Position numbers and translations under genes: made by a program
In this document: in pieces, positions 21,379 to 43,619 of the stretch
Layout of the letters: every line of letters starts with the position of its first letter
Position numbering within the stretch: the stretch's first letter is position 1
Notes under the pieces: generated by a model
Told to the model about the DNA's origin: nothing
The model's input: only the letters and a program-made list of their open reading frames with translations
Databases searched by the model: none
Origin: Methylacidiphilum caldifontis
GTDB taxonomy: Bacteria > Verrucomicrobiota > Verrucomicrobiia > Methylacidiphilales > CAMAQI01
Length of the DNA: 63,045 bases
Assembly: GCA_945877805.1 (NCBI GenBank)
Contig: CAMCSM010000005.1
Location: forward strand, 1 to 63,045
Direction: 5' to 3'

Positions 21379-21462
21379 AGGGGAGGAGATGAAAGTGGAA
21401 TTAGATTGAGATACAGGAGTTTAAAGCTGTAATCGCATTCAGAATTATAAATTACCATAAAT

Positions 21463-24640: not shown

Positions 24641-27253
24641 TTAAAAATCCTCGTTAATCGCCCGGTCGATCGTCACTTTGACGCTGGTTTGTTCGATTCC
24701 CGTGTTAAGATCCCGCGCCACCAGACGGAATTCTTTTTTTGGGTCGAATGTCTGACTGACCAAACTGAGCCAAACACTCTTCTTTCTCTCCTCCATCGTG
24801 CCCGATTCGGAATCAAAAGTCACTTTTTGAATATCTGAGACTGGAAGTTCCCCATCGCTCAAAAAAATCTCCAGCGAGACTGGTTTCAGTCGATCTCCCA
24901 CGGGTTCGGTTTGAAGGAATTCAAAGCGATGACGGGAGGTCGTGATGATGTGCCGGTTTCCAAGAATCTGGACATCGACCGGTTTGATTTTAGTTAAGGC
25001 CAGTCCTTTCCCTTTGATTTGTCTCACCGTGACAACCGGGATCACGATCTCCTGGGGCATCAGGCCTCCATGAAAGTAGCGGGCGCCCCCGACAAAGTGA
25101 AAGAGATTGACCCCTTTCGGAATCCAAAATTCGACATTCCCTTCGGCCTTAGCCGTTTCTTTTGTCGATCCCTTCCACGCCTTTTCGTAGGGAGGAAGAT
25201 TCGTTCCCAAGAGATACCGTTTTTTAGCGAGAATCGTTCCTTGGGGTTTTTCTTCAATTTTACTCTTTTCATGTTCCTCGGGATATTTCTCCTGAAAGAG
25301 GAATCCATGGTCCGCCGTAATTAAAATATAAGTGCCGTTGAGATTATCGATGATGTAGCGGACGAGCGAGGCAAGCTCCTCGATCGCCTTCCCTGTCGCC
25401 AGGAAAGTCTCCCCTTCGGTGCTGGCTGAATCGCCGCTCGCATCGACTCGATTGTGATAGATGTAAATCAATCGATGTCCTTCAACCATTTCCCGCCCCT
25501 TGGCCTTATTGGCTGCCAGAAGATCATCCGCCTTAAAGGCGATCCCCTCGTGTTTGGCGAGTATTTGTCTTCGCTGCTCGGTACTCCCCGTCGCCATTCC
25601 ATCGACGTGAACCTCCCCCTGGGCGGTGTATTCAAGTGTTTGATGTGGTAAGAGCGAGGCCATCCCTAATGCGGTATAGGAGGGGAGAACACCAAGCATG
25701 GAGCTCAGGTCCGATTGATATCGGTATTTTCCCGCGAGTTCCCGATGGAGTTCTTCTGCCGCTTCATAGCGGAAGCCATCGCTGATAATGACAAAGACCT
25801 TCCGCTTTTCGGCTTCCGCCAAACGGGGGGCTGCATGGCGCTCGTAGAAATCGTATTGATTCGGAACATCCCGGACTCTCCAATCCTGAAAGAAACGTTC
25901 TCCTCCTGCTTCCACCATTTTGCTCCATTGCAGGGCGATCTTCGGAATAAATCCGCACGAATAGCACTCTTCGATCTTCCCTCTTAAGTTCTTGAGCAAT
26001 TCCCATGGTTGTTTCTCCACTTCATCGGCATAACAGCAAAAGTGTCGATAGAGACGGTCTATCTTGAAATAGGTCGTTTCATAGGAACGAAAGCAGTCGG
26101 AAAGGGTTCCGGGCTCCAAAGCGGATTCCAATGTTCCACACCCTTTAAGAAATTCTTCGGCAACTTCCAGAGCGCGATAGGCGTAAAAGTAGCTCTTTCG
26201 GGGAACGAGATCGCTATCCGCGGAATCTCCATTTTGAACCCAATGCCCCATCTTACGAGCCGAGATCAATTCACCCCACGTTCCTTTTGATTCGTTGGAA
26301 ATGGCCTCTTTCACCAATGAGATCAGTCGTTTTTCAATCGCTTGAAAGGTTTGAATCTCCCTAATCTGTTCCAAAGTCAGATCATTTAGGAGAGAATTAA
26401 TGTCGATCTCCTTCTCGATCTCTCCGGACACCGTATCGTAGCTTTTTCGCTGCGTGGCGCTGTCCCTCCATTGGGAAAGGAAGGCGGTGATATCGGCGGT
26501 GCATGACTTAGGGAGGATTAGGGCTCGCAGAGAATGGGGTGGCTCTTGAAGTTTCAAGGCGAACTCTGTGACCAAGAGCCGCCTTAATAAAAGTCCAGGC
26601 TGCGTTAGGGCTTCCGGGATTCCAAAATATTTTTGGCAGAGCTTCCAAAAGGAACCATCCAGATGACATGCTTGAATCTCCTCCCAAATCACCGGGAGGC
26701 CTTCGATCCCCTTTTGTTCCTCGACTAGGAGTTGAAACAGTTGACGGGCACAGAGAAAGAAGTCCGGTTGGGTCGTTTTGAGAGCGATCGAGAGCATTTT
26801 CAGATCGAGACTCTCCGCCGTTTCATGGGGGGAGACCATCCCTTGCAGACTCTTGAGGCGGGCGGGACTTCGAAAGAAAGCCTCTCGGGCTTTCAAATGG
26901 GGCTTGAGTTGATGAGAATCCAATTTCAATTCATCAAAAATCTGGCTGATCCGGTCGGCGCTAAAAACGGCTTGGGAGGGCTTTAAATAATAGAGCCAAT
27001 CCTCCTCTGGACTCGGCTCCGGATGATTGGAATAAACCAGATATTTTCCCGCGGGATCCTCGATTTCCAAGAGGAGCTTGACCGAGAGAGAGCCGATCTC
27101 ATCCAGTTTCAATAAGCGAACTCCGGGGAGGGAGGGAATTAACTCCTTCACCTCGGCGGTGTACGATTTTTCCGGATCATACCAAAAGACAATCCGGCCA
27201 TTGACCTCAGAAAATCGTCTCTGCAACGCTTGTATTAATGCATTCTCCCCCAT
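24641..27253 (-). CDS. pglZ: BREX alkaline-phosphatase-family protein PglZ
   Basis: 'RIVFWYDPEKSY', 'VFVIISDGFRYEAAEEL', 'ILITADHGF'. ATG 27253 (MGENALIQAL) sits 1 nt after the upstream stop, while the ORF-track start 27295 overlaps it. Confidence 0.9.
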   Translation of the reverse strand: MGENALIQALQRRFSEVNGRIVFWYDPEKSYTAEVKELIPSLPGVRLLKLDEIGSLSVKLLLEIEDPAGKYLVYSNHPEPSPEEDWLYYLKPSQAVFSADRISQIFDELKLDSHQLKPHLKAREAFFRSPARLKSLQGMVSPHETAESLDLKMLSIALKTTQPDFFLCARQLFQLLVEEQKGIEGLPVIWEEIQACHLDGSFWKLCQKYFGIPEALTQPGLLLRRLLVTEFALKLQEPPHSLRALILPKSCTADITAFLSQWRDSATQRKSYDTVSGEIEKEIDINSLLNDLTLEQIREIQTFQAIEKRLISLVKEAISNESKGTWGELISARKMGHWVQNGDSADSDLVPRKSYFYAYRALEVAEEFLKGCGTLESALEPGTLSDCFRSYETTYFKIDRLYRHFCCYADEVEKQPWELLKNLRGKIEECYSCGFIPKIALQWSKMVEAGGERFFQDWRVRDVPNQYDFYERHAAPRLAEAEKRKVFVIISDGFRYEAAEELHRELAGKYRYQSDLSSMLGVLPSYTALGMASLLPHQTLEYTAQGEVHVDGMATGSTEQRRQILAKHEGIAFKADDLLAANKAKGREMVEGHRLIYIYHNRVDASGDSASTEGETFLATGKAIEELASLVRYIIDNLNGTYILITADHGFLFQEKYPEEHEKSKIEEKPQGTILAKKRYLLGTNLPPYEKAWKGSTKETAKAEGNVEFWIPKGVNLFHFVGGARYFHGGLMPQEIVIPVVTVRQIKGKGLALTKIKPVDVQILGNRHIITTSRHRFEFLQTEPVGDRLKPVSLEIFLSDGELPVSDIQKVTFDSESGTMEERKKSVWLSLVSQTFDPKKEFRLVARDLNTGIEQTSVKVTIDRAINEDF

Positions 27254-27254
27254 T

Positions 27255-27839
27255 TTATGAGGCTCCCTTTGTTTCTTGTAAAATTTGCGCACCATACGCC
27301 GTTAGTCGATACCTTTGAAGTCGACTAGTCGGCTTATCGGGAATGGTGCGCTCCACGAACTTCAGCTCGACGAGACGTTGGATTTGTTTGTTGAGCTCCC
27401 CGGAGACCGTTTGGTGACCGAGCTTTTTCGCCAAATGGATCTTTCCTTCTTCCGCTTGACCCAAAAGAACGATCAACTTTGCCGCTAACCTCGACTCTAG
27501 CCGCGACTCTAGCCGTTCATCTCCGGATTGCGGCTCTCGACGGCTGGCTTGGATGGGTAGAGAAAGCACCTTTGGATGAACCGGAAGACGGATCACGAAG
27601 GAGAGTCGATCCTCATCCGTTTCAAATCGGGGCTTCGGTGACCCGTTCTCCTTCATCGCCTTGAGGATTTTTGGGATTCCCGTGGAACGCCCCTCCGTCA
27701 GGTCGAGTTCTTTGAGGAATTCGCCAATCCGACGATTTCGGTACCGTCGGGAAACCGCTTTTCCTGCCCTCAGATCACTCATTTGAATCGATCGATCAGG
27801 GTCGTTGAGCATTTCAAGGATGTTGAGAGGGAGTGGCAT
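27255..27839 (-). pseudogene. N-terminally truncated paralogue of the AlbA_2/HATPase_c_4/wHTH regulator (C-terminal 194 aa only)
   Basis: 'SRRYRNRRIGEFLKELDLTEGRSTGIPKI' aligns with 'SQIRNPVIARVFRELDLVEQWGSGIPGI' of the 492-aa protein. Both end with '..SRLQ(R/K)YR(L/I)..'. The AlbA_2 N-domain is missing. Confidence 0.6.
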
Positions 27840-27848
27840 AGGATCACT

Positions 27849-28409
27849 TTAATGGGACATTAATTTTCTTACCCCTGAGACAAACACATTAAAACTTGCA
27901 GAACGATTACGGTCAGGGGTCATTTTTTTTGCAATCTCTGCTGCCCGAATCAATTTGGCCCGGGTTCCTGTTAACTCTTTTATCAGTTCTGAAGCATTTG
28001 TTAATTCATCAGGATTTCGTCGCATTAATCCTTTATAAGCGGAATGTCGTTTGGCATTTGGATATGCCTCCCCTACTGCATCTAGATCTCCAATAAACCA
28101 ACTTTCAAGCTCCTGACAGACGATTCGAATTAAGAACTCGGGCGAAGTTTCTGGAACTCTGGTTTTTAGCTGTTGTTTTAAGTTGGAGCAATTAGATCCA
28201 TCATTATCTCGCAAAATGATGAACCGATCATCAGGCTTCCTCCATTCTCGCATCTTTTTCGGAAACGAGGACTCTAAATCAGATTTACCTTTGTGATGGA
28301 TCAGTATCCAATGCTGAAACTCTAAAAATTCTGGGAAAAGCTTTGGAAATAACTCTCGAAGAGTTATCCCCATGGATTCCTCTTCCGTCATAAATATGAT
28401 ACGGCTCAT
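27849..28409 (-). CDS. DUF4276-type (TOPRIM-like) protein
   Basis: 'IIFMTEEES' supplies an acidic strand and 'FIILRDNDGS' a DxD, plus 'CQELESWFIGDLDA'. ATGA-type 4-nt overlap with the upstream ATPase. Confidence 0.75.
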   Translation of the reverse strand: MSRIIFMTEEESMGITLRELFPKLFPEFLEFQHWILIHHKGKSDLESSFPKKMREWRKPDDRFIILRDNDGSNCSNLKQQLKTRVPETSPEFLIRIVCQELESWFIGDLDAVGEAYPNAKRHSAYKGLMRRNPDELTNASELIKELTGTRAKLIRAAEIAKKMTPDRNRSASFNVFVSGVRKLMSH

Positions 28410-29611
28410 GTCACCAGTAATGATTTGCTGTTAAAAAGACCTTGGTTCCATAAATACCCGGGGAGATCTCCTTTCTTGTAAAGGCGAACCAAGAGAGGGT
28501 GATCGGAAGCATGATAGACAGTAGATTTGCCGTTTTCCTTTTCGAGCCAATAAATACAGTCCAGTGGCACAGAATTTAAAAAATCGGGCGAGTGAGAAGA
28601 GACAAATACCTGTCCCCCCCGCTCGGAGTATTGTAAAAATTCCTCCGCTAAAACACTCATTAACTCGGGATAAAGCTGATTTTCCGGTTCTTCAACACAA
28701 AGAATCGGATGTGGTTTTGGATCAGCCAATAAAACCAGATAAGCAAACATCTTAATCGTTCCATCGGAAACATTTTTGTCGATAAAAGGATCCACAAAAG
28801 CACCATCTTTGTATCTCATCAACAAGCGACCATCATCCGTGACAGTAACCGCAATGTCTGCGACACCAGGCACTCGCTCCAACATTTTTTTCTTAATGGA
28901 CTCGAAAATACCAGGATGTTTTTCGTATAAATAGCGAGCGGTGGAAGGGAGATTATCTCCGCTTGGTGAGAGATGGAGGGAATCTTCCTCCTCTTTGTCT
29001 CCGCGAGCACTGCTGATATGAAAGTCGGAAATATGCCAGTTCTCAATTAACTGGCGAAATGCGGAGGCGGCTTTAAACCGTTCAAATTGGCCTAAACCTT
29101 TTACGGCAAGTGTTTCAGGAGAATCCAATTTTTGAGGTTCACGCGTTAACTCAGAATCTTTTTTATCAAAATCCTCTTCGTTCGTAATCGCATAGCCTTC
29201 TCCGTTCTTAAAATCAATAAAATGGAAAGGAGATCCATGGGGTCCACGTTTATAGCGAAGGATTTCACGTTTAACGATGGGACCATTGCCTTGGTCATTT
29301 CCAATTTCAAGACGATAAGTCACCAGTCGATTGGTGCCAGCGATATCCAATCGAAACTGAATTTCGATCTCTAAATCTTCATTTTCATGACCACGACTAA
29401 GGACTTCTTTTAATCCATTGCGGCCACCTTCAATATTTAAAGCGGCCCTTACATTTTTTGCCAGGCAGTTTTTAAGGAAAGCAAATACTCTAAACAGGGT
29501 TGTTTTGCCTGTACCATTGCGCCCAACAAAAACACAATAGGGAGGAACCTCTGTAATTTCAATATCACAGAGGGCCTTAAAGTTTTTGACTCGGATCGTT
29601 TCAATATTCAT
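28406..29611 (-). CDS. ABC/AAA_15-21-type ATPase partner of DUF4276
   Basis: 'IRVKNFKAL', Walker A 'GRNGTGKTT', 'CVEEPENQLYP', 'SSHSP'. Confidence 0.8.
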   Translation of the reverse strand: MNIETIRVKNFKALCDIEITEVPPYCVFVGRNGTGKTTLFRVFAFLKNCLAKNVRAALNIEGGRNGLKEVLSRGHENEDLEIEIQFRLDIAGTNRLVTYRLEIGNDQGNGPIVKREILRYKRGPHGSPFHFIDFKNGEGYAITNEEDFDKKDSELTREPQKLDSPETLAVKGLGQFERFKAASAFRQLIENWHISDFHISSARGDKEEEDSLHLSPSGDNLPSTARYLYEKHPGIFESIKKKMLERVPGVADIAVTVTDDGRLLMRYKDGAFVDPFIDKNVSDGTIKMFAYLVLLADPKPHPILCVEEPENQLYPELMSVLAEEFLQYSERGGQVFVSSHSPDFLNSVPLDCIYWLEKENGKSTVYHASDHPLLVRLYKKGDLPGYLWNQGLFNSKSLLVT

Positions 29612-29675: not shown

Positions 29676-31451
29676 TCATTCCTCCTCCTTCTTACAAATA
29701 CTCTTTGTCTCCGCCAGCAGATCGTCAAATTTTCCATAATTCACTTTTACACCGTCATCGAGATCGAGGGAAATCCGTTGATCGGCGAGGTGGCGGAGTT
29801 TTTCTTCGAAGTGGTGGAGCTCCGCCTGTTGTTTGACGATCGTCTCCTTCTCTCGCTCCAGCTTTTTGCGGGCACTCGTGGAGGTCGCAGCGGCGATGTC
29901 GTCCTCGAGATGAGCGATCCGAGCGGTGAATTTGGATTGGAGGGGGATTACATATTCCGTCCGCATCCGGGAGAGGGTTCCGGGATTATAGCGATGGAGA
30001 TAAACGAGGGCTTGGAAGGCCTGCTGTTTCCCGCTGGTGAAGAGCCAGTAAATCGGCCGCTTTTTGTAGGTCTGAAGATGATCCTTGTAAAACTTATCGG
30101 CGAGATAGGAGCGAATGATCTCACGGGGGGAATCTCCAGAGATCCCAAGACTGGAGGCGATCCAGGCGAGATTTTCCTCCAGATGCTCCCGTGGCCAAGC
30201 GGTGGCGATGAATTCCTCCAGCCGGTTTGCGGTATCGTCGGGGAACCAGGCCATTCCGGTCAGGGGAACAATCCCATCGGCATCGGCAGGAAAGGTCATG
30301 TAGTTTTGAGGATCGAATCCTTCTCCTCCGGCGTTGGCATAAACTAAGCCAGGTTTATCGAGCGAATAGCGCCCCATCATGCAGCCGATGGCGTAGGAGA
30401 TCAGTTCTTTGGCGGTGTCGCGGCGTAAAAGGGATTCATACTCCTCATCGGTCTTCCCTGCGCCATAACGATAGACGGGATTACAGGTCAGTGTGATTTC
30501 TTGAAGAGGAACATCGGGTGTTAATTCATCTTGAAGTCCGTAGGCGTCGATGAAAATGCGGTTGTTTTCTTCCTCCAGCCGTTTCATCTCCAGAGTCATG
30601 GAGTGCCAGTGGGACCGAAGCTTTTGATAGGTTTTCTGTGCAGTTGACAAAATGAAGTTCGAATTAAGTAGAGTTAACTCAATAAAATCCCAAGAGGATT
30701 CGTAGGAGTTCCAGTCTATTTTATGAAAAGCAATTAATTGTTTGCAATGTTCATCAATGAACTTGTACTTTTGATTTAAAATAATAGGGATTAAGGCAAC
30801 ATTTCCAACTTGAAAATTTAATGTAGGGTTCATCGCCTTCATGAAGCCGTGTGAAATATTTGAACATAATAATCCAGTCAGAAAATACCTGTCCTCTTCT
30901 GAGGGGAATGCAGATGATCCGGCAACATCAAATATAGCTTTTGTATCGGAAAATCTAACGCCAAAATAAGACGAGCTAACAAACGACCAAGTAATCGATT
31001 CGTGAAAATAATATTCGCAATTTTGAGGACGAGATCTCAGTTTGCCTTTTTCATCAGTAAAACTCTTAATTTCATAACCATTCTTTTCCCAATTAACTAT
31101 ATTTTCATTATTTCCATACCACTTACGATATTCCCCGCCTTTATTATATGGAAACCATTTCTTACTAAAATCGTGACTGCTTTTGCAATAAAAGCTGATT
31201 TTTAAGCGCGAAACTTCAAACCATTCTCGAACAAATCTCTCATTGTTTCCTGTTTGTAATCCGACTTTTACTGGTGCGATTTCCTCTAATCTTACATTGT
31301 CTTTGAAAGCCTTTCTTAATTGATCACTCGTCCAATAAGCAATCGGATTTCCGGGGATTTTCTTGAAATCATCAGCGGAGGCGCGGAAGAAGTAGCGGTC
31401 GGTAGTAGACGGTAAGGAATTGGTTGTGGATGGATTTTCAGAGGCACTCAT
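29676..31451 (-). CDS. pglX: BREX methyltransferase PglX, C-terminal half (TRD + C-terminal helical domain) as a separate ORF
   Basis: Starts with the TRD-entry motif 'IPGNPIAYWTS..GLQTGNNERFVREWFEV' and ends 'KKRPIYWLFTSGK..ALVYLHRYN..VNYGKF'. It has its own ATG 1 nt after the Shedu-like stop. Confidence 0.85.
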   Translation of the reverse strand: MSASENPSTTNSLPSTTDRYFFRASADDFKKIPGNPIAYWTSDQLRKAFKDNVRLEEIAPVKVGLQTGNNERFVREWFEVSRLKISFYCKSSHDFSKKWFPYNKGGEYRKWYGNNENIVNWEKNGYEIKSFTDEKGKLRSRPQNCEYYFHESITWSFVSSSYFGVRFSDTKAIFDVAGSSAFPSEEDRYFLTGLLCSNISHGFMKAMNPTLNFQVGNVALIPIILNQKYKFIDEHCKQLIAFHKIDWNSYESSWDFIELTLLNSNFILSTAQKTYQKLRSHWHSMTLEMKRLEEENNRIFIDAYGLQDELTPDVPLQEITLTCNPVYRYGAGKTDEEYESLLRRDTAKELISYAIGCMMGRYSLDKPGLVYANAGGEGFDPQNYMTFPADADGIVPLTGMAWFPDDTANRLEEFIATAWPREHLEENLAWIASSLGISGDSPREIIRSYLADKFYKDHLQTYKKRPIYWLFTSGKQQAFQALVYLHRYNPGTLSRMRTEYVIPLQSKFTARIAHLEDDIAAATSTSARKKLEREKETIVKQQAELHHFEEKLRHLADQRISLDLDDGVKVNYGKFDDLLAETKSICKKEEE

Positions 31452-31452
31452 T

Positions 31453-32688
31453 TTATCTCTTGATTCTAGAAACTTGTAGTTTTTTGAGCTTCATCATGGC
31501 AATAATATTGCTCAGACGACATAGCAGGTCGTCATAAGTCATAATATCAATCATGTTAGCATATTTTCTTCGAATAATCTCGAAGTCAAATTCCTGTTCA
31601 CTTGTAAAGTTATCGTCTCGGCCTATCAGTATTAGAGCCTTTGGATTAGTTATCTTGAGTTTGAACTTCTCCGGAAGTTCCTTTTTGTGTTTTTTATATA
31701 TTTCCTGCTCGCCTGCTTGCCCCCATTTACTCAGGTGAAATAAGTATTTTTCAGCCTGCATAATAGTACCTGACAGCTCTGCTCTTGGTGTATGATTGTC
31801 GCGGTATTTACTGCTCGAAATAATGCAATGAGAAAACGGTTTTTTAACTTCGATAATATCAATACTACCTTTGGCATCTACAAGCATTAAATCAACAAAT
31901 CTGTTTGTTGTCTTATCTAATCTTGTATAAAAATCTTTAATGCGAACGTTTTCAAGAACGGCAATATACTTTGGAAAAACAAATAGCACGAAGGCTAATA
32001 TTTTTTTTTGCCACGTTTTTTCCTCATAGCTATCAGCCTCAGTCAACATAGTACTAAGTTCATCGTGTATATATTGGAATTTTTGTAATTCATGTGCGAC
32101 AAGGACTTGGTTTGATGGGTTATTTTTTAGTGAATTTTTCTTTGCCATGTAACGATTTAACTTAGCTTCAGGATCCGACATGGTCGCAAAATAATCTTTA
32201 AGTACTCTTGATATCCGTGTCTCAGCGTAATGAGATATCTCTGTCGTTGAAGGAAAAATTTTTAGAAATCGCTCAAATTCTGCAGGATGGATTGCGTTTT
32301 CTTTTTCTCCTCCAACAATAATCGCCTCGTCGATCAATTCATCAATTTTTCTAAAAACAGAAATATTCCTTTCAGCAACAAAAAACCTTTTTGTTAATTT
32401 AATTTCCTTACTAATTAACAAGTCGTGTTTCAGTCTAAGAATGGTCTTATTTATTTTATAATATTTTCCCTCTAAAGTTCCAATTTTGAATGTATATTCT
32501 CTATCATCATTAAAATCAATTTGAACACCGTCGGAATCTAGATCCTTCTTTGTAAGAAAGAACGTGTGTAAGATCCTTATTTCTCCTGCTTTTGCTTCTA
32601 GCTCTCTATCGATCCAGTTCGGATCGGTAAATTTGAAAGGTTCATACTTAAGTAATAAATAATTTTTTTCTCTAGAGATCTCTATCAT
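31453..32688 (-). CDS. Shedu-type (SduA-like, DUF4263) PD-(D/E)xK nuclease
   Basis: 'FVDLMLVDAKGSIDIIEVKKP', 'IMQAEKYL', 'ALILIGRDD', 'IDIMTYDDLL'. This is the DUF4263 core with a variable N-terminal domain. Confidence 0.8.
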   Translation of the reverse strand: MIEISREKNYLLLKYEPFKFTDPNWIDRELEAKAGEIRILHTFFLTKKDLDSDGVQIDFNDDREYTFKIGTLEGKYYKINKTILRLKHDLLISKEIKLTKRFFVAERNISVFRKIDELIDEAIIVGGEKENAIHPAEFERFLKIFPSTTEISHYAETRISRVLKDYFATMSDPEAKLNRYMAKKNSLKNNPSNQVLVAHELQKFQYIHDELSTMLTEADSYEEKTWQKKILAFVLFVFPKYIAVLENVRIKDFYTRLDKTTNRFVDLMLVDAKGSIDIIEVKKPFSHCIISSSKYRDNHTPRAELSGTIMQAEKYLFHLSKWGQAGEQEIYKKHKKELPEKFKLKITNPKALILIGRDDNFTSEQEFDFEIIRRKYANMIDIMTYDDLLCRLSNIIAMMKLKKLQVSRIKR

Positions 32689-34634
32689 TTCCCAACCCTC
32701 CGTGCAGCTTGAAGATTTCTTTCGTTTAATGGAGGAAACTGCTTTGGCTTATTGTCTGAGTCCATGTCTTCATACTCAACAAAACAAAAAGCTCCTTTAT
32801 ATTCCTTGATGTAGGAGTTTCTCCAGATCGTTGCAGAAGTTCCAAACGCAATTCCCATAACCATATTGGCCATGTGAGCCATGCATTCAATCGTTGCATG
32901 ATCTAATAATTTTTCTCGGAGTTTTTCGTAGGATGATAAGAACATCCAGCTCTGCATGGTGACCATTCCGCTGTATCCATTTTTAAGGATCATTTCCAAT
33001 CCTCTTTCGATAAACATCGCAAAGAGATCGGATTTGCTATCAGGGAATACTTCCTTTGCCCATGTGCTCAACAATGGATTCATTCCCTTGCTCCCCATAT
33101 AAGGCGGGTTCGCGACAACCGCATCGTATTTACGGGAAAGGTATTCGGCCTGCTCGATCAATTTCAGAATACGTTCCAGTTGTTCCGAGATGAAAAGATC
33201 CTGTCCATCTTCCGCATTCCGCACCTCTGCCCACTGGCGCAATATCGGTAGTGCTTGCGTGAGGGAATCCGGAATGGTAATCAATGACCCAAAAGTTTTG
33301 GCATGGGCGAAAAGGCCGACAAGTTCCTTCAGTTCCGTTGGCAGGGGGGATTTGGTTGATGATGATGGGCGACTTCCCAGCAGTGGCTGTGCGTTGATTT
33401 CTGGAAGTAAATCCCCAGACTCGAAAGGGGAGGGGGAGGTTGGTTCTCCCAAAAGTTCTAAGTGAATTCCTCCGCTTTCTGAAAAGCAGAGGATTTTCGG
33501 GATGACTCTCCGTGTAAAAATTTGACGATCATCCTCTCGTGCTTTCATCATCAGGGCAAATCCGGCAAGCTGGGCCGCCCGTTCATCGATTTCTAGTCCA
33601 AAGAGATTTTTTTCGAGAATTAGCGTGGGAATCTCTTTTTTGAGATAGCCCCGTTCAAGATAGATTTCCCGGAAGAGATCGTAAGCTTCCACCAAGATAT
33701 GTCCGGAGCCGCAGGCGGGATCGAGGAGTGTGAGTTCTTCGGGGTTGAGGCTTTTGGGGGTGGAACAGTCCATCTCCGCCTGCACCTCGGGTGTCTGATC
33801 CCCTGGAGGAATATAATAAGTCATTTTGGCTTTTAATCCCGATTGTGGATAAGTGGCCATCCATTGAGAACCGAGGGTATTCTGCACCAGATATTGAACA
33901 ATCCACTTCGGAGTAAAAAGCTGCGTGGCAGCGGGAATATCCTCCGATTTGACCACTTTTCCGATGACCGCGTCTTTCTTTTCAGAGATATAATATTGAT
34001 AAAGCCAGCCGACAATTTCGACCTCCTGCCAATCCGAGGCATCGACTTCCCGAATCATTTTTCGAATGTTCGAATCGGTATGAAGGAGGTTTTCAGAAAG
34101 CAGGAGCTCGGTCGCTCCTCCGACAAATTCAAAGAGAAAGGGCATGGCCTCGTGAAGTTGATGACATTGCTCCAAAAGCAAATATCGATAAAGCTCCGCA
34201 TCTTTTGTTCCCTCCAACTTGAGCGAGAGAACTTTCTGCTTGTCCAATCGGGACCAGTCGAGGAGTTCCGCTTTTTCCAGAATTTCAGGGATCGATTTTT
34301 CTGGATCGGGATGACTCAAAACCCGCAGACCGTGATCGAAATAACCGTGGAGCTCCATGAATCGAATGGCGACGAGCCGATTGAACCAGGAATAGGCGGC
34401 CTCCTCCATCGACGCTTCAAATCCCTGCTTCTGAATTTTATCCTTCAGAAGACCGTAGGCATGGAGATCGGAGCGGGGAAATGGTCTCCCCTCGATCAGG
34501 ATGAATTCCCCCGACTCTTTGACCGTCGCGAATCCCTCCTTGGAAATTCCATAGAGAGATGCCTGGGCGGTGACCGCGGCGATAAAATCTTTGCGTGCCG
34601 ACTGGGCGTAGGTTTTGAGAGCGCTTTTATTCAT
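32685..34634 (-). CDS. pglX: BREX methyltransferase PglX, N-terminal half (N-domain + N6-adenine MTase core) as a separate ORF
   Basis: PglX-type N-terminus 'YSWFNRLVAIRFME', SAM motif 'LLDPACGSGHILVEAY', catalytic 'VVANPPYMG'. The stop overlaps the Shedu-like ATG (ATGA). Confidence 0.85.
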   Translation of the reverse strand: MNKSALKTYAQSARKDFIAAVTAQASLYGISKEGFATVKESGEFILIEGRPFPRSDLHAYGLLKDKIQKQGFEASMEEAAYSWFNRLVAIRFMELHGYFDHGLRVLSHPDPEKSIPEILEKAELLDWSRLDKQKVLSLKLEGTKDAELYRYLLLEQCHQLHEAMPFLFEFVGGATELLLSENLLHTDSNIRKMIREVDASDWQEVEIVGWLYQYYISEKKDAVIGKVVKSEDIPAATQLFTPKWIVQYLVQNTLGSQWMATYPQSGLKAKMTYYIPPGDQTPEVQAEMDCSTPKSLNPEELTLLDPACGSGHILVEAYDLFREIYLERGYLKKEIPTLILEKNLFGLEIDERAAQLAGFALMMKAREDDRQIFTRRVIPKILCFSESGGIHLELLGEPTSPSPFESGDLLPEINAQPLLGSRPSSSTKSPLPTELKELVGLFAHAKTFGSLITIPDSLTQALPILRQWAEVRNAEDGQDLFISEQLERILKLIEQAEYLSRKYDAVVANPPYMGSKGMNPLLSTWAKEVFPDSKSDLFAMFIERGLEMILKNGYSGMVTMQSWMFLSSYEKLREKLLDHATIECMAHMANMVMGIAFGTSATIWRNSYIKEYKGAFCFVEYEDMDSDNKPKQFPPLNERNLQAARRVGK

Positions 34635-36109
34635 GAAGATTTGAGGAATTTGATCCCCTTTTTGGAGATGCGGTATTTTTGAAGACGACTGTTCGGTTTT
34701 TCGGGGATTGTCCGCTCGATCAGTCCCTTTTCAAGGAGCGGAAGGAGATGACGTTGATAATTCAAATAAACACTGGCAAGCCCCGCGGCCTTCAGGAGAT
34801 CGATCTTGGTTTTTGGGGTGTTGGAGCAGGCCTTTAAAATCATCGCGACTTGCTCACTGACTTGCTCACTGACTTGCTCACTGACTTGCTTGTTTGACTG
34901 GGCCCGTGACTGGGCCTTTAGTCTGGATGTCTCTCCTTTTCGAGACTGCGTGCGAGAGAGAGGGAGGATTTTGGGCAACGGGACGGTGAAACGGACTCGG
35001 CCTGCGAGTTCTTCAATGATCGGGTCCTGGAGTTTTTCAGCTTTGGCCTGACGGAAGATCCCGGGGATACCGCTCCCCCATTGCTCGACGAGATCGAGTT
35101 CACGAAAGACGCGGGCGATCACCGGATTGCGGATCTGTGAAACACCTCGTTTCAGTTCTTCAACGGTCAACCCCGGCAACAATAAACCCGGGCTTTCGAC
35201 CTCGATTCGATTATCAAAAAAAGCAATGCGGGTCGGCGTCCCTCGATGAGAATAATCGGCATGCACGAGGGCATTGATGATGACTTCACGCAAGATATTG
35301 ACGGGGATACTCCAAAGATCTTTGCGACGGATCTCCGAAAAATCGGCCCCCCGCATGGCGTGTTTTTTGAGAAAGAGCATAATCGACTCCACGGCATGGG
35401 GAAGGGGATCGAGGAGATCGATATGATCAAAAATATCCGCTTTGTCATTGCCGATGAAGCGCCCGCATTGAATCCAGGCATCATCAAAATGAAGGCGCCT
35501 CTCTTTGGCATAGAGGAGAATGCCTCCCTGACTTGGAACCAGTCGGCCCTGATCCTTCACGAGGATCCGGAGACTTTGCAACATCGGCTTATCGACAGTG
35601 CGACCTTGAAAATCTTCCTGAATCGCCTTTAAATCCAAAGCATCGATATCAAGGTCGGGCATTGGCAAGGCATCGAAGCTGACGCCCGCAACACCCCGTT
35701 GTAATTCTGCGATGAGTTGGGGATCGGCCTGTCGGTTTGTCGAACCGAGGCGGACATAAGCCCCACGGTCGATTCCTTCCGCTTTGAGGAAATGGGGGCG
35801 GGTTCCACTCAGAAAAACTTCAACCACCAAGAGCGTTTTGCCCTGGACGGTCATCATCTCAATATTGGGCACCAATCGGGGTGAGATCGAATCGGCGATC
35901 AGATTCGCCAAACGCTCCTCTTCATCGAGTGGCGACTCGATCCCCAAAACTTTGCGATCATCGGTTACACCAAGTACCAGACGGCCGCCAGCGGAGTTCG
36001 CGAAAGCGACCAACGTTTTTAATAAAGGGGTGGGGGAGGATAAATTCCGCTTGAACTCAAGGGTTTTGCTCTCGGGCTCATTTAAAATTTCAGTAAAGGG
36101 ACGGTTCAT
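34631..36109 (-). CDS. AlbA_2 (Schlafen-like) + HATPase_c_4-like + C-terminal wHTH putative regulator
   Basis: 'ESKTLEFKR..LLKTLVAFANSAGGRLVLGV' is the AlbA_2 motif. 'INALVHADY' and 'WGSGIPGI' are also present. The C-terminal wHTH ends 'NSRLQKYRISKKG'. Confidence 0.8.
   Translation of the reverse strand: MNRPFTEILNEPESKTLEFKRNLSSPTPLLKTLVAFANSAGGRLVLGVTDDRKVLGIESPLDEEERLANLIADSISPRLVPNIEMMTVQGKTLLVVEVFLSGTRPHFLKAEGIDRGAYVRLGSTNRQADPQLIAELQRGVAGVSFDALPMPDLDIDALDLKAIQEDFQGRTVDKPMLQSLRILVKDQGRLVPSQGGILLYAKERRLHFDDAWIQCGRFIGNDKADIFDHIDLLDPLPHAVESIMLFLKKHAMRGADFSEIRRKDLWSIPVNILREVIINALVHADYSHRGTPTRIAFFDNRIEVESPGLLLPGLTVEELKRGVSQIRNPVIARVFRELDLVEQWGSGIPGIFRQAKAEKLQDPIIEELAGRVRFTVPLPKILPLSRTQSRKGETSRLKAQSRAQSNKQVSEQVSEQVSEQVAMILKACSNTPKTKIDLLKAAGLASVYLNYQRHLLPLLEKGLIERTIPEKPNSRLQKYRISKKGIKFLKSS
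34847..34916. repeat. In-frame 12-nt tandem repeats (gacttgctcact x3 + degenerate copy, then tgactgggcccg x~2)
   Basis: Units at 34847, 34859 and 34871, a degenerate copy at 34883, then 34895 and 34907. They encode AQSRAQSNKQVSEQVSEQVSEQV in the regulator linker. Confidence 0.9.
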
Positions 36110-36123: not shown

Positions 36124-39100
36124 TTATTTAATCTGAATTCTTTCATTCCGAAACAGAGCCGCCTTCAGGTGAGATTGAAGGGCTTTGATGAAGTCGTCGG
36201 CCTGCTCGGGGGTTTCCAAGTAAGAACCATTCACGAGCTCGGAGGGTTTGATGACGGTTCGAACCTTCATGACGGGGGTGGAGTCCCCTTTGCCGGAGCT
36301 TGTTTTTTTCTCCTTCAAAATCCCGGAAATTTCCGCGTAAATTTTTTCCGTGAGGTTTTCGATTTTTTCCTCGGCTTGGGCAAGGTGAGCGAGGCTCTCT
36401 TGGGAGGCGATTTGCGTTCGCAGATCATTCAGAGGGGCGAGCAATGCGTCACGGTGGGGAGCGAGCGAGGCCTGGGAGGCGATCTCTTTCTCAAGGATCG
36501 CGATTCCCTTCGTGAGTTTCTCATAGACCTTCTCCCGACGGCTAAGGATCAGGGCTTGATTGACTTGTTCCACCGTTTGGATCAGTCCATTCGCCTCTTT
36601 GATGATTTCGTAGGGGGCCTTGGCTCCGAGAATCACCGCGATCCGTTTCAGCGCCTGTGAAGCCTGAGGATCTCCCATCAAGTCCTCTTGATTGAGGATA
36701 AATCGTTGATGGGCGCCCCGAAGCTCTTCCCAATTTCGTTTTTGGTTGATGTAGAAGTGTTCAATCTGATGAACGGTTTCGGAAAGATCGAGAAGATCCT
36801 TCTTTTGATCCACAAAACGTTCCAAAAATTTAAATCCTTCGGTTTCAACGGTAAACTTCTTGAGCGAGGTGAGACTCTCTTGGATTTCCGTCGCTCCCGG
36901 GTAGTTGCCGGTATCGGCCAAAGGCTTGAACTGTCCCAGTTTTGTCTCCCATTCCCGCAACCGGGACTGGGTGAATTCAAAGAGAGAATCTTCCCCTTCA
37001 GGCCCCATTTGCGAAAAGAGCTGTTGTCCGATCGATCGGGCGGACTGAAGTTTGGCTGTATCGAGAGACTTTCTTTGGACGACGGTGATCTTTTTCCAAT
37101 TCGCTTGGGCTGAAATCTTTTCGTACACCTGCGCCGGAGAAATGGGGGCTCCATTCAAGACAAACTGGATCTCTCCCAAAACGGAGAGACGGGCGAGAAG
37201 GAGAACGGTCTCCCATTCGGGCCATCCAAAGGGGCGATTTGAAAAACGTTCCGAGGCCATCTCCTCGACGATCAAGGTCTTGCTCGTTCGGACAGAAAGA
37301 TCGATGTACTGACGAACTTCCTGAAGGGCTTGGGGATTGGATTCCTCTGTCTGGGCAATGAGCGTTTGCTGTCCGATATCGTTGCTTCGAAGAATCGCCT
37401 GAATTTCCCTGAGGGGCTCGGAGAGGACCTTGCGGATATAACTCATCTTTGGGAAAGTGTTTCGGATGAGGTAATCGAGAGCCTCATCCATCCACTGAGA
37501 GGCGGAGGAGGACTTGGATTCGACCGTCGCTCCAGCGGCGAAAAATCCGGCCCGGAGGAAGAGTTGGGTGATGAGCGTTTTGATCCGGGTTTGTCGTTGC
37601 CGGTTCTCTTCCGCCAGATCTCCGAGAATTCGTTTGGTGGCGGAGGAGATGGTCCCGTCGTTTTTATTCCGAACATAGCGATCGGTTTTGAGATAAACCC
37701 GGAGTTCACGCCCTAAGGTTTCATCATCAGGAAGGCGGATAATCAGCTGTCCTCCATCGACCGAGCTTTCGAGAATGCACTTCTCATTTTTGGCATTGGC
37801 ATAGTCCTCACCTAAGGGGGTAATAACCCGGACTTGGACCGCTCCTTCGAGTCGGTTTCCAATCGGGCGGCTGTCGCAAAAGCGATTGAAAGAAAAGTCC
37901 TTGCCGCTGGCCTTGTAACGGTGCTTGCGAATTCCGCCGAGGAGGTCCTCAAAGAGAATTTCTCCCAGCTTGCGGGATTCCTCGCCTGAATCGATGGAGG
38001 TGTTTTTAATTTCCCGGCTAATATCCCGCTCTTCGTTGGTCAGAAATTGGTAGAGATCGCCATTTCGGCTGATGAGAGTCTCTTTTTCGAGTCGGATGAG
38101 ACTGGCTTCAATCTTCTTTCTCAGGAGGTGACGGTCGGTATCGACCTGATCGACACAAAGGGTGACCAAGTTATCGACCGATCCTTTGACTTCTTCGACA
38201 TAACGGATCAGGAAGAGGACCTTCAGGATATCCATATCGAAAGGTTCGAGGGATGGATTCGTCGAAGCCTGTTCGATCGTTTTTTGGACGAAGGTATCAA
38301 GAAAGTTTTCAATGGCGGGATAAAACCGGTAAAGGGGGACTAAAATTCCGACCGATTGAGCCGAGACCTCTTTGGCCGCCGATTGAAAAGCATCGAGTAA
38401 GGAGCGTTCCCCTCGGGCCAAATGAGTTCCTGCAGCGCCTACCTTACGGATCGATTCGAATATTTTTTGAATCAACTGGAATTGATAAGGGGCAAAAGGA
38501 TAATTTTTGGCGAAGTCGGCGGGATCCTTGTAAGCATGGAAGGTCATGCCGACTTGGGTAAAAGTGAGTTGGTTTTTAATGATATCGCTTTTACTGCGGT
38601 AGAGAGTTTCAAGGTCTGCGACCACGGAGGATTTTTTGGCCAGAAGGCGGGTCTGGATCACTTCATCGACATTCGCGCTTGAAAGAGAGAGACGGTTTTT
38701 CTTGAAGCGTCCCTGAATCTTCGAAAAATCGTTCATGCGGTTCGTCGTTTGTTCTCCGAGAACGGTATCGATATCCTCTTGCGATGTGACGATCAACCAA
38801 GCTCGACCTTTACAGATCGTGCCGAGATTTTCGGTGATCGTCTGTAAATCGAGCATTTTTTGAGATTGTCCGCCGATATACTGACCGACTTCATCGGCGA
38901 GGAAAATAATGCGGTGGTGGGGTCCTTTGGCGGTGAGGTAGTCATTCACCCATTTTCCGAAATTTTCGATTGTCAGAGGGAAGTTTTTCTCGGCGTTATC
39001 GAGCCACTTCGAGGCCGATTCCAGACTTTGTCCAATGGCCTCGGAAAAGGCTTGGGCAATTTCATCGCGATGGAAATCATAGGCATCGCGTTCTTCCAAC

Positions 39101-39713: not shown

Positions 39714-40286
39714 TCAGGGGATGAGGCGGAAGGCCCGGTAGTAGTTATTGCTTTCAATGGTTCCAAAGAGTTTAAGGGATTTACCGTCGTATTCCCCAGG
39801 ATAAAAAAGAATCACAGGTATTTTATCGAGATGGGAGTGGAGACTTTCAAAAAGACTATGTCCGCGGATCAAGGGATAGACGGGACCGATGCCGGTCAGA
39901 AAAACAAGGGAGGGGGAAGATTCCATGACTTTTTGAGCGATCAAAGGAGCAAGTTTGTCCTCCTTTAATCGACCTGAGAGGGCCTTGAGGAGAGCGGCAT
40001 CCCCCTCTTTTTTCTGTTTTTCGATGGATTTATCCAAAAGTCCCGCCGATTGAAGATACTCGATTGTGAACTTCCATAAATCGAGATGGAAAATCTTCAG
40101 TCCTGGGCGTTTTTTTGGGCCATGCTCCAACAGGAAAGAGAGGTGTTGGCGCATCGCCTGTTCTTCCTTGGGAGGGTAATCAAAAATATGAAAAGAGATT
40201 TCATTACCGAGACCTCGGCTCTCGAGAAAGCCATCGGAAGTGATCTTCTCTAGGATTAGATTTAAACGTTCTTGAAAAGGGGTCAT
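39714..40286 (-). CDS. brxB: BREX protein BrxB (DUF1788)
   Basis: 'ISFHIFDYPPKEEQAMRQHL', size 190 aa, 4-nt overlap with brxA. Confidence 0.85.
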   Translation of the reverse strand: MTPFQERLNLILEKITSDGFLESRGLGNEISFHIFDYPPKEEQAMRQHLSFLLEHGPKKRPGLKIFHLDLWKFTIEYLQSAGLLDKSIEKQKKEGDAALLKALSGRLKEDKLAPLIAQKVMESSPSLVFLTGIGPVYPLIRGHSLFESLHSHLDKIPVILFYPGEYDGKSLKLFGTIESNNYYRAFRLIP

Positions 40287-43392: not shown

Positions 43393-43619
43393 CCTCCACC
43401 TAAATCGTATTTGTAAGCGTTTTTAATGCGACTTTCACCATGTCGTGTTAATCGTATTGAAGGCGAGACCCCAAGCCCAATTTCCCCAATAAACTGCAAT
43501 GCTTTTTCAGCGGCATTTCTTTTAAAGCCACCTGCGCGTTTCATCGATTCAATGGATTTCACCAATTGTCGGTGATGACTTTTTTCGAGTATTATGGTTT
43601 TGGGTTCCATCCTATTCAC
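43314..43619 (-). CDS. 101-aa ORF with a RelE/ParE-like motif; likely the displaced N-terminus of the helicase gene
   Basis: 'HGESRIKNAYKYDLGGGCRFLTLQ' continues naturally as 'IRGECFYLFGDHEESEHWI' in the overlapping helicase frame (79-nt overlap). Confidence 0.5.
   Translation of the reverse strand: MNRMEPKTIILEKSHHRQLVKSIESMKRAGGFKRNAAEKALQFIGEIGLGVSPSIRLTRHGESRIKNAYKYDLGGGCRFLTLQYEESAFICSVITRNLNIG

What the first reader, a model, noticed from the sequence alone, without database searches (positions are those of the whole stretch)
29676..34634. pglX is split at the methyltransferase/TRD boundary, with a complete Shedu-type nuclease gene translationally coupled between the halves
The 649-aa ORF carries the PglX N-domain, the SAM motif 'LLDPACGSGHIL' and the catalytic 'NPPYMG'. 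The 591-aa ORF begins at the point where single-chain PglX proteins enter the target-recognition part ('IPGNPIAYW..GLQTGNNERFVREWFEV') and ends with the usual 'KRPIYWLF..YLHRYN' tail. Together they total 1240 aa, about one normal PglX. Between them sits a full-length 411-aa DUF4263/Shedu-like PD-(D/E)xK protein ('VDLMLVDAKGSIDIIEVKKP..ILIGRDD..MTYDDLL'). The junctions are ATGA (32685-32688) and TAA-n-ATG (31451-31455), so all three ORFs look translationally coupled rather than disrupted. I know of no described BREX locus in which the methyltransferase is a two-gene enzyme wrapped around a nuclease. BREX has no assigned nuclease effector, so a nuclease whose expression is locked to pglX translation could be an integrated effector or a fail-safe.
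Basis: partly seen in the sequence, partly recalled or inferred. Interest (0 to 1): 0.86.

Follow-up and report, generated by a model that had tools for sequence, protein, structure and literature searches.

The report
Two-piece BREX methyltransferase carrying Shedu
The methyltransferase gene of a BREX anti-phage system is cleanly cut in two at an inter-domain linker, with an independent Shedu defence nuclease between the halves. The same cut recurs in many unrelated microbes with other defence genes in the gap, so it is a reusable cargo slot rather than damage or a BREX-specific nuclease.

Summary
On the minus strand, a 649-aa ORF (PglX residues 1 to about 620), a 411-aa SduA and a 591-aa ORF (PglX about 641 to the end) abut through ATGA and TAA-n-ATG junctions. 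They sit inside a complete type 1 BREX operon. One NCBIfam PglX model is covered 1-648 by the first ORF and 649-1210 by the third.

The arrangement is not unique. PglX is split at the same linker position in Stutzerimonas, Halopseudomonas, Pantoea, Serratia, P. aeruginosa, Aeromonas, Pseudohongiella, an actinomycete MAG and the archaeon Methanocalculus. It is also split in 20 of 73 evaluable metagenomic relatives.

The gap holds varied cargo:
- SduA, alone or with other systems
- an RT-nitrilase DRT
- SIR2-HerA
- HEC-02-like ATPase pairs
- an AlbA_2 protein
- deletion scars of such cargo

Both halves evolve under purifying selection (dN/dS 0.1-0.2). The window's SduA keeps every catalytic and DNA-end-sensing residue of the solved E. 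coli SduA. Close homologues also stand alone outside BREX.

Best reading: a functional two-subunit PglX (methylase subunit plus specificity subunit), with an autonomous co-transcribed Shedu in its inter-half slot. It is a new variant of "defence embedded in BREX", not an integrated BREX effector. Function of the split enzyme is inferred, not shown.

The parts
40283..40930 (-). brxA
   Evidence: Pfam BrxA PF08849, E 3e-48
39714..40286 (-). brxB
   Evidence: Pfam BrxB PF08747, E 1e-38. Overlaps brxA by 4 nt.
36124..39708 (-). brxC
   Evidence: NCBIfam NF033441 BrxC, 1173 bits against a cut-off of 400
34631..36109 (-). 492-aa AlbA_2 / HATPase_c_4 / Fic-like_C wHTH protein, an accessory gene between brxC and pglX
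   Evidence: Pfam. A 72%-identical homologue occupies the inter-half slot in L139.
32685..34634 (-). pglX-N: N-terminal helical bundle plus gamma-class N6-adenine methyltransferase domain (motifs DPACGSGH and NPPY)
   Evidence: NF033452 positions 1-648/1210, 726 bits. Matches PDB PglX residues 1-620. Translation.
32685..32688 (-). ATGA junction: the pglX-N stop overlaps the sduA start
   Evidence: Sequence read. The ATGA overlap follows from the M-I (ATG-ATx) start of sduA and recurs in other BREX loci.
31453..32688 (-). sduA: Shedu PD-(D/E)xK nuclease of the E. coli SduA type, cargo in the inter-half slot
   Evidence: PADLOC SduA full length, E 4.5e-159. PDB 8PS4, E 1.5e-94. W25, E223, Q227, D266, E280, K282 and Q311 are invariant in the family alignment. 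They correspond to EcSduA W25, E226, Q230, D269, E283, K285 and Q314.
31449..31455 (-). TAA-n-ATG junction: sduA stop, one base, then the pglX-C start
   Evidence: Sequence read
29676..31451 (-). pglX-C: end of the MTase domain, hinge, TRD, helical spacer and C-terminal domain (specificity subunit)
   Evidence: NF033452 positions 649-1210/1210, 716 bits. Matches PDB PglX residues 642-1218. PADLOC half-length model PDLC02516.
30500..33000 (.). Low-GC mosaic block (about 0.30-0.41 GC against 0.45-0.59 in the flanks). It covers the last ~100 codons of pglX-N, sduA and the TRD part of pglX-C.
   Evidence: Composition. Sliding identity: N 551-649 best matches the Methanocalculus and Aeromonas split forms, the TRD best matches Pantoea and Serratia, and the rest best matches betaproteobacterial PglX.
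28406..29611 (-). HEC-01 ABC-type ATPase (AAA_21), a second embedded system
   Evidence: PADLOC HEC-01, E 8e-181. Pfam AAA_21.
27849..28409 (-). HEC-01 partner (DUF4276, TOPRIM-like)
   Evidence: PADLOC HEC-01, E 2.6e-45. Pfam DUF4276.
27255..27839 (-). 194-aa remnant (C-terminal third) of an AlbA_2-family gene
   Evidence: Pfam partial HATPase_c_4 plus Fic-like_C. 29% identical to residues 327-492 of the 492-aa protein. A full-length copy sits at this place in L002.
24641..27295 (-). pglZ (type A)
   Evidence: TIGR02687, 790 bits against a cut-off of 270
22598..24637 (-). brxL
   Evidence: TIGR02653, 1149 bits against a cut-off of 628

Best explanation
This is a complete type 1 BREX operon whose methyltransferase, PglX, is made as two polypeptides. 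PglX-N carries the helical bundle and the SAM-dependent N6-adenine methylase. PglX-C carries the hinge, the target-recognition domain, the spacer helices and the C-terminal domain.

The cut sits in a poorly conserved linker just before the hinge, so the two products can reassemble non-covalently. This resembles HsdM plus HsdS in type I systems. The reassembled enzyme would work inside the BrxB/C-PglX-PglZ machinery (inferred).

The gap between the halves is a cargo slot. Defence genes land there and are co-transcribed and translationally coupled with pglX. They can be exchanged together with the neighbouring TRD by homologous recombination in the conserved pglX flanks, and later decay by deletion while the split persists.

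In this window the cargo is an intact E. coli-type Shedu nuclease. It most likely acts on its own, by clamping free DNA ends and nicking them. That gives a second layer of defence, independent of methylation, expressed in step with BREX.

Shown here: the anatomy, the recurrence, the diversity of cargo, the mosaicism, the selection on the halves and the conservation of SduA residues. Inferred: assembly and activity of the two-piece PglX, autonomy of SduA in this host, and the recombination route.
For: (1) The halves are exactly complementary and nothing is lost.

(2) The breakpoint is the same in 10 aligned split loci from Beta- and Gammaproteobacteria, an actinomycete MAG and a euryarchaeon.

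(3) Frequency. Loci were picked by motifs conserved in the C-terminal part, which intact and split PglX share. Of 73 evaluable metagenomic loci, 20 are split at this junction, 51 are intact and 2 are disrupted otherwise. Most of the best hits to PglX-C are 560-610-aa proteins without a methylase domain. PADLOC holds half-length models.

(4) dN/dS is 0.10-0.21 for both halves between pairs of split loci. For Pantoea against Serratia, dS is 0.37-0.58 and dN/dS is 0.10 and 0.12.

(5) The cargo varies and is always co-oriented with pglX:
- SduA plus RT-nitrilase (L004, L005)
- SduA plus SIR2-HerA (L011)
- RT-nitrilase (L082, L085, L109, L112, L155, L102, L164)
- SIR2-HerA (L101, L111, L169, L153, L113)
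- HEC-02 or related ATPase pairs (L111, L155, L158)
- AlbA_2 (L133, L139, L116, L090)

(6) Scars. The Pantoea 132-aa ORF equals the last 132 aa of the Serratia RT (85% identity). The Pseudohongiella 69-aa ORF equals the last 44 aa of an RT. L118 is an internally deleted RT. In all three, both pglX halves stay intact.

(7) The window's central block is low in GC and mosaic in origin. No flanking repeats were found.

(8) One PglX-N is followed by two PglX-C genes in Methanocalculus L090, and two consecutive PglX-C genes also occur in L129. This is as expected for a separable specificity subunit.

(9) SduA is a full-length orthologue of the solved, single-gene E. coli Shedu, with all catalytic residues and the end-stacking Trp conserved. 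Close homologues sit outside any BREX or RM context.
Against: - No experiment shows that a split PglX methylates or defends.
- Went et al. could purify the Salmonella N-terminal domain alone but could not express the C-terminal domain alone (PMC11341690). Assembly in trans is therefore not trivial.
- At least one split locus (P. aeruginosa L082-84) lacks pglZ and brxL downstream, so some split systems may be decaying.
- The close SduA clade is strikingly enriched in BREX loci: 14 of the 24 closest genomic homologues. That would also fit a functional tie beyond co-expression.
- The NJ trees used to judge how often the split arose have no support values and few taxa.
- The recombination route is inferred from mosaicism alone.
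Confidence: 0.66

Rival explanations
1. Integrated effector or guard. SduA is functionally wired to BREX. It could be the DNA-cutting arm of this BREX. Or it could be a fail-safe held in check by the PglX/BREX complex and released when a phage inhibitor such as Ocr disables BREX, as PrrC is released from EcoprrI.
For: - SduA is translationally chained between the two PglX halves.
- 14 of the 24 closest genomic SduA homologues lie inside BREX-1 loci, always next to or inside pglX and upstream of pglZ.
- Precedents for guards embedded in RM/BREX exist, such as PrrC and PARIS (discussed in 10.1101/2024.01.29.577857).
Against: - The same slot holds unrelated systems in other loci: DRT, SIR2-HerA, HEC-02-like pairs and AlbA_2.
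- Split PglX persists with only cargo scars.
- Homologues 57-60% identical stand in non-defence neighbourhoods.
- EcSduA defends alone and senses DNA ends through its own N-terminal clamp, which is conserved here.
- BREX already has a nuclease in PglZ.
Confidence: 0.15
2. Dead or decaying BREX. A recent insertion of sduA broke pglX, and the two ORFs are non-functional leftovers.
For: - The central block looks imported: low GC and mosaic.
- Another gene in the same operon was truncated next to the HEC-01 insertion, leaving the 194-aa remnant.
- Some split loci lack pglZ and brxL.
Against: - Both halves are full length with no frameshift or internal stop, and all motifs are present.
- All six core BREX genes are intact.
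- The identical breakpoint with clean start and stop coupling recurs across phyla.
- dN/dS is 0.1-0.2 on both halves in split lineages.
- Cargo decays while the halves are kept.
Confidence: 0.1
3. Selfish homing-type insertion. The nuclease gene mobilised itself into pglX, like free-standing homing endonucleases that split phage genes into functional pieces.
For: A nuclease gene sits exactly inside a conserved gene whose pieces remain intact. The analogy is with phage nrdA or DNA-polymerase genes split by homing endonuclease genes (from general knowledge, not tested here).
Against: - SduA is not of a homing endonuclease family.
- Non-nuclease cargo (RT-nitrilase, SIR2-HerA, ATPase pairs) occupies the same site.
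- The same SduA clade sits at other positions.
- No repeats or target duplications flank it.
Confidence: 0.03
4. Assembly or annotation artefact, such as a chimeric contig or sequencing errors that create false stops.
For: None specific. The window is a single assembly, and no identical SduA was on record elsewhere.
Against: A 1.2-kb intact gene with perfect start/stop coupling cannot arise from base errors. The same architecture appears in independent isolate genomes and metagenomes.
Confidence: 0.01

Closest known systems
Defence genes embedded in BREX operons: BrxU/GmrSD in pEFER and ECOR21, PARIS in Salmonella BREX, and the 'guilt-by-embedding' survey of Payne et al. (10.1101/2024.01.29.577857). 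Also the 87 Shedu genes counted within BREX loci by Gu et al. (10.1101/2023.08.10.552793).
   Same: A self-sufficient defence gene nested co-directionally inside a type 1 BREX operon and presumably co-regulated with it. Here there are two such systems, Shedu and HEC-01.
   Different: Described cases sit between BREX genes. Here and in the relatives found, the cargo sits inside pglX and turns it into two genes. None of the papers read mentions a split PglX.
Single-chain PglX/BrxX of type 1 BREX (Salmonella 8C45, E. coli HS 9EWZ)
   Same: Same domains in the same order. N + C align end to end (E 1e-174 and 1e-152). The SAM and NPPY motifs, TRD, spacer helices and C-terminal region are all present.
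   Different: Two polypeptides instead of one. [quoted passage not shown] That does not hold for this locus or for about a quarter of its sampled relatives.
Type I restriction-modification HsdM + HsdS, and the prrC anticodon nuclease nested in the EcoprrI hsd locus
   Same: Methylase and specificity functions on separate polypeptides. Loci with more than one specificity gene exist (L090, L129). The PglX C-domain resembles HsdS structurally (PMC11341690). A nuclease nested in a modification locus is also shared.
   Different: PglX-C has one TRD and no HsdS sequence homology was tested here. There is no HsdR. Nothing here shows that SduA is masked by the methylase as PrrC is.
E. coli Shedu SduA (PDB 8PS4/8PS5/8PS6)
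   Same: Same length (411 aa). The N-terminal clamp domain and the DUF4263 nuclease are both matched. All catalytic residues and Trp25 are conserved.
   Different: Moderate identity: HMMER E 1.5e-94 for the match, with residues 33-400 aligned. Its genomic position inside pglX differs. Activity is untested.
Genes-in-pieces created by free-standing homing endonuclease genes in phages, such as a split ribonucleotide reductase (from general knowledge)
   Same: Insertion of a nuclease gene splits an enzyme gene at a tolerated point, and the pieces reassemble into an active enzyme.
   Different: The cargo here is not a homing endonuclease and is interchangeable with non-nuclease defence systems. The spread looks recombinational rather than nuclease-driven.

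Membership tests
Type 1 BREX | Six core genes in one co-directional cluster: brxA, brxB, brxC, pglX, pglZ, brxL | tested here: met
   Pfam BrxA and BrxB. NCBIfam BrxC, PglX, PglZ type A and BrxL are all above their cut-offs. The gene order is on one strand with gaps of at most 64 nt.
Type 1 BREX | PglX is a single polypeptide with an integral TRD (as stated in PMC12707154) | tested here: not met
   Two ORFs cover model positions 1-648 and 649-1210, separated by a 1.2-kb gene.
Type 1 BREX | N6-adenine methylation of a non-palindromic 6-bp motif, and methylation-dependent exclusion of phage | not testable with these tools
   Needs a methylome and phage assays. Only the catalytic motifs DPACGSGH and NPPY can be seen.
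Shedu (SduA, E. coli type) | C-terminal DUF4263/SduA_C PD-(D/E)xK nuclease domain with intact catalytic residues | tested here: met
   PF14082, E 1e-36. E223, Q227, D266, E280, K282 and Q311 are invariant in the family alignment and equivalent to EcSduA E226, Q230, D269, E283, K285 and Q314.
Shedu (SduA, E. coli type) | N-terminal DNA-end clamp domain with the stacking Trp25 | tested here: met
   Residues 21-185 match the solved EcSduA N-domain 8PS6 (E 3e-24). W25 is invariant.
Shedu (SduA, E. coli type) | [quoted passage not shown] | not testable with these tools
   Known for EcSduA. Here the only support is indirect: close homologues stand alone in other genomes.
Embedded defence system in the sense of Payne et al. 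| A gene or genes nested between the genes of a multi-gene defence system, on the same strand, and not mobilome | tested here: met
   sduA and HEC-01 are nested in the operon on the same strand. No transposase and no flanking repeats were found.
PrrC-like guard of a modification enzyme | The nuclease is physically bound and silenced by the host methylase complex and released by a phage anti-restriction factor | not testable with these tools
   No test is possible from sequence. The variable cargo in the slot argues against a specific partnership.
Homing-endonuclease-split gene | The inserted gene is a site-specific homing nuclease that targets the uninterrupted allele | tested here: not met
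   The inserted gene is a Shedu family nuclease. The same site carries RT-nitrilase, SIR2-HerA and ATPase pairs elsewhere.

The most novel reading that the evidence does not exclude
The inter-half slot is more than a convenient landing site. Splitting PglX would create a BREX with a detachable specificity subunit, so specificity could be swapped or multiplied as in type I systems. The cargo between the halves, here SduA, would act as a guard. Its synthesis is chained to PglX translation, and its activity would be restrained by the assembled PglX/BREX complex. A phage that blocks or unbalances PglX, for example with an Ocr-like mimic, would then unleash the nuclease.
Probability: 0.12. Interest if true: 0.8.

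Novelty: new variant of a known kind. Interest (0 to 1): 0.58.

Why it matters
- BREX is still understood only in outline, and PglX is treated as a single chain whose TRD is integral. If the split forms work, nature has already shown that the methylase and specificity halves function in trans. That invites simple tests: co-expression, subunit swapping to retarget BREX, and structures of the heterodimer.
- It identifies an intragenic hotspot where defence systems accumulate and turn over. This refines "guilt-by-embedding" searches. Several slot ORFs have no known family: 183 aa in L093, and the 189/218-aa partners of ATPases in L155 and L158.
- Annotation pipelines that call half-length PglX as partial or pseudogenes would misjudge such BREX systems.
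- It removes a tempting but unsupported idea, that Shedu is the missing BREX nuclease.

Tried and rejected
- Exact-sequence look-up of the window's SduA found no other contig.
- The promoter and terminator scan of 27.0-41.5 kb gave counts at shuffle level, so there is no evidence for an internal promoter or terminator around sduA.
- The repeat search of 29.0-35.2 kb found no direct or inverted repeats flanking sduA or the low-GC block. Transposon or integron-type insertion and an invertible shufflon in this locus were therefore rejected.
- No tRNA genes occur in the window.
- Literature searches found no description of a split PglX. Terms tried: PglX+Shedu, Shedu+BREX+SduA, PglX+split+BREX, UG5+BREX, embedded/hotspot terms, Hma/HEC, and nitrilase+BREX+DRT. 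Goldfarb et al. 2015 could not be read.
- I first thought the 'FYRASA' leader of PglX-C marked split forms only. The intact L091 has it too, so that idea was dropped.
- I first read small ORFs in the slot (132, 69 and 55 aa) as possible adaptor proteins. The first two are remnants of the RT-nitrilase C-terminus. The 55-aa ORF in L087 remains unassigned.
- The plasmid tblastn returned 268 PglX hits, but I did not sort them into split and intact.
- I did not run structure prediction.

Full report
**What is in the window**

The minus strand from 40930 down to 22598 carries twelve co-directional genes. They overlap or lie at most 64 nt apart. In order they are:
- brxA and brxB (Pfam)
- brxC (NF033441)
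- a 492-aa AlbA_2/HATPase_c_4/wHTH protein
- the 649-aa ORF
- the 411-aa ORF
- the 591-aa ORF
- a HEC-01 pair: an AAA_21 ATPase plus a DUF4276 protein
- a 194-aa gene remnant
- pglZ type A and brxL

This is a complete type 1 BREX operon with extra genes nested in it. It lies in a dense defence island. The island also holds a DruE-like helicase, AbiL, PDC-S11, a UvrD-like helicase, AbiEi and PDC-S02.

**Checking the observation**

One is ...gggaaATGAtag... and the other is ...agagaTAAaATGagt....

The two outer ORFs are exact complements of one PglX.
- The NCBIfam BREX-1 PglX model is covered 1-648 by one ORF and 649-1210 by the other. Each scores above the cut-off.
- PADLOC model PDLC02521 is covered 1-614 and 621-1170.
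- The solved Salmonella and E. coli proteins are covered 1-620 and 641/642 to the end.
- The best intact comparator I found is a 1233-aa metagenomic PglX, L091. It aligns at residues 7-653 with the first ORF and 656-1231 with the third. The split therefore removes nothing. It only adds a 6-residue tail and a roughly 14-residue leader.

Relative to the published structure, the cut is about 15-35 residues before the hinge at 654-659 (PMC11341690). PglX-C therefore carries the last segment of the methylase domain as well as the TRD.

The middle ORF is a full-length Shedu nuclease of the E. coli SduA type. It matches 8PS4 at E 1.5e-94 and a PADLOC SduA model end to end. The residues shown to be essential in EcSduA are E226, Q230, D269, E283, K285, Q314 and the end-stacking W25 (10.1101/2023.08.10.552762). 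They correspond to E223, Q227, D266, E280, K282, Q311 and W25 here. All are invariant in a 20-member family alignment.

**Is the arrangement unique?**

No. I scanned one genome per species with an SduA alignment, which returned 80 loci.
- Among the 24 closest homologues (at least 46% identity), 14 lie inside BREX-1 loci.
- In most of those, pglX is intact and sduA lies between pglX and pglZ.
- In Stutzerimonas (L004), Halopseudomonas (L005) and an actinomycete MAG (L011), pglX is split as here. There sduA follows the N half, with further cargo before the C half: an RT-nitrilase DRT, or SIR2 plus HerA.

Searching with PglX-C showed that most of its best relatives are 560-610-aa proteins without a methylase domain. 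Their contexts confirmed split pglX in several more organisms:
- Pantoea ananatis
- Serratia proteamaculans
- Pseudomonas aeruginosa
- Aeromonas veronii
- Pseudohongiella
- the archaeon Methanocalculus

An alignment of ten split and seven intact proteins puts the break at the same linker position in every case.

A metagenome scan used motifs from the conserved C-terminal part, which intact and split forms share, and gave 79 loci. Of these, 73 could be judged: 51 intact, 20 split at this junction and 2 disrupted elsewhere. PADLOC already contains half-length PglX models of 607 and 593 aa. The databases have therefore met these proteins, even though I found no paper that describes them.

**What sits in the slot**

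The cargo is always co-oriented with pglX. In most of the genome loci read, the PglX-C start overlaps or nearly abuts the stop of the preceding ORF. The cargo found was:
- SduA: the window, L004, L005, L011
- RT-nitrilase DRT (UG5 type): at least ten loci
- SIR2-HerA: six loci
- HEC-02 or related ABC-ATPase pairs: three loci
- an AlbA_2 protein like the window's 492-aa gene: L133, L139/L141, L116, and a fragment in Methanocalculus
- a 156-182-aa partner of the RT
- ORFs with no family match

Several apparently empty slots are scars.
- The Pantoea 132-aa ORF is the last 132 residues of the Serratia RT (85% identity).
- The Pseudohongiella 69-aa ORF is the last 44 residues of an RT.
- L118 is an RT with an internal deletion.

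So cargo is gained and lost while the two pglX halves stay apart and intact. The retained 3' end of the old cargo gene abuts the PglX-C start. This suggests it is kept because it provides the coupling or ribosome-binding context for PglX-C (inference).

**Are the halves functional genes?**

Between pairs of split loci, dN/dS is 0.10-0.21 for both halves. For Pantoea against Serratia, dS is 0.37 and 0.58 and dN/dS is 0.10 and 0.12. Those two loci share the RT-type slot, so the split predates their divergence. The constraint therefore applies to the split state.

In Methanocalculus one PglX-N is followed by two different PglX-C genes, and L129 also has two consecutive PglX-C genes. This is what one would expect if PglX-C behaves as a separable specificity subunit.

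There are points against.
- The Salmonella C-domain could not be expressed alone.
- The P. aeruginosa split locus lacks pglZ and brxL.
- No experiment exists on any split PglX.

**How the window's version arose**

GC content drops to 0.30-0.41 between about 30500 and 33000. That block covers the last ~100 codons of pglX-N, sduA and the TRD. A sliding identity comparison shows three different affinities:
- N residues 551-649 are closest to the split forms of Methanocalculus and Aeromonas (54-82%). They are only 8-54% identical to the betaproteobacterial intact PglX.
- The TRD is closest to Pantoea and Serratia (64-82%).
- The rest of both halves is closest to betaproteobacterial PglX or to the P. 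aeruginosa and Pseudohongiella split forms.

No repeats flank the block. The simplest reading is homologous recombination in the conserved pglX flanks: the NPPY region on one side and the conserved C-terminal region on the other. That would import a cassette made of the MTase end, the cargo and the TRD.

NJ trees place split forms among intact ones, which suggests several origins or frequent exchange. These trees are small and have no support values.

The ATGA overlap at the sduA start follows from its M-I (ATG-ATx) start. It recurs with whatever gene lies upstream in other BREX loci.

**Interpretation**

The best-supported explanation is a two-subunit PglX whose inter-half gap is a slot for autonomous defence genes. 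Here that gene is a Shedu nuclease that senses and nicks free DNA ends, co-expressed with BREX as a second layer.

The evidence does not support it.
- The slot takes unrelated systems.
- The same SduA clade sits elsewhere in BREX loci. Homologues 57-60% identical stand in housekeeping or glycosyltransferase neighbourhoods.
- EcSduA works alone.
- BREX now has a nuclease of its own in PglZ (PMC12205998).

The enrichment of this SduA clade in BREX loci keeps a guard-type relationship possible but unproven.

**Comparison with what is known**

Defence genes embedded in BREX are well described. Examples are BrxU, PARIS and the guilt-by-embedding survey. Shedu within BREX has been counted, 87 cases, and was noted again in a 2026 survey.

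What I did not find is any mention of PglX as two genes or of a slot inside pglX. The texts checked were that survey, the Payne preprint, the PglX and BrxX structure papers and a 2025 review. [quoted passage not shown]

I therefore rate this as a new variant of a known kind. It is a real, recurrent and probably functional architecture, of moderate to good interest to BREX and RM specialists, and directly testable.

Noticed in passing
window 27255-27839 (-), with 27849-29611: The 194-aa ORF is the C-terminal third (partial HATPase_c_4 plus a wHTH) of an AlbA_2-family gene. It lies directly downstream of the embedded HEC-01 pair and overlaps the pglZ start by 41 nt. Gallionella L002 has a full-length gene at that position. 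The HEC-01 insertion therefore seems to have truncated a gene, unlike the clean pglX split.
   Followed up: partly
window 34847-34890: A 12-nt unit, GACTTGCTCACT, is repeated in tandem inside the 492-aa gene. It encodes (QVSE)n just before the C-terminal wHTH and could be a length-variable linker.
   Followed up: no
L090 9827-13340 (Methanocalculus); L129 2-2840: Two consecutive PglX-C (specificity-half) genes occur in both loci. In L090 they follow a single PglX-N; in L129 the contig starts inside the first PglX-C. The two L090 copies are 53% and 47% identical to the window's PglX-C. This suggests multiple specificities for one methylase subunit.
   Followed up: partly
L081 9603-10001; L088 9795-10004; L118 3100-3700; L110 9423-9971: Small ORFs between the pglX halves are deletion remnants of RT-nitrilase (DRT UG5) cargo or of its 156-aa partner. 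The 3' end of the old cargo gene is what survives next to the PglX-C start.
   Followed up: yes
L082-L084 (Pseudomonas aeruginosa): A split pglX with an RT in the slot is followed by a deaminase and a TIR protein instead of pglZ and brxL. This is either a decaying BREX or a rearranged hybrid island.
   Followed up: no
L103 2867-11725; L140; L022 5711-9938: L103 has three tandem pglX paralogues, judged from PglX-C matches spaced about 3.57 kb (one full gene length) apart, and L140 has two. Psychromicrobium L022 has inverted partial TRD copies inside pglX, which looks like a shufflon-type phase-variable specificity.
   Followed up: no
window 9524-22563 and 41242-47331: The BREX operon sits in a large defence island. 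It holds a 1968-aa DruE-like helicase with MZB and a C-terminal S24 peptidase domain, AbiLii/RloB plus AbiLi, GGACT and AAA proteins, PDC-S11 (DUF4268), a UvrD/GajB-like helicase, AbiEi and PDC-S02 (YhcG/DUF1016).
   Followed up: partly
L093 5034-5585; L155 6338-6907; L158 1867-2523; L085 6532-7002: These slot ORFs have no Pfam or PADLOC match: a 183-aa protein, the 189/218-aa partners of ABC-type ATPases, and the 156-aa partner of the RT. They are candidate new defence components by their embedding.
   Followed up: partly
one search hit list (for example P0196, P0163, P0132, P0219): Many PglX-like proteins of 700-1030 aa sit on long contigs. They have methylase domains but are shorter than full length. 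They may lack the N-terminal helical bundle, be split at another point, or reflect gene-calling differences.
   Followed up: no
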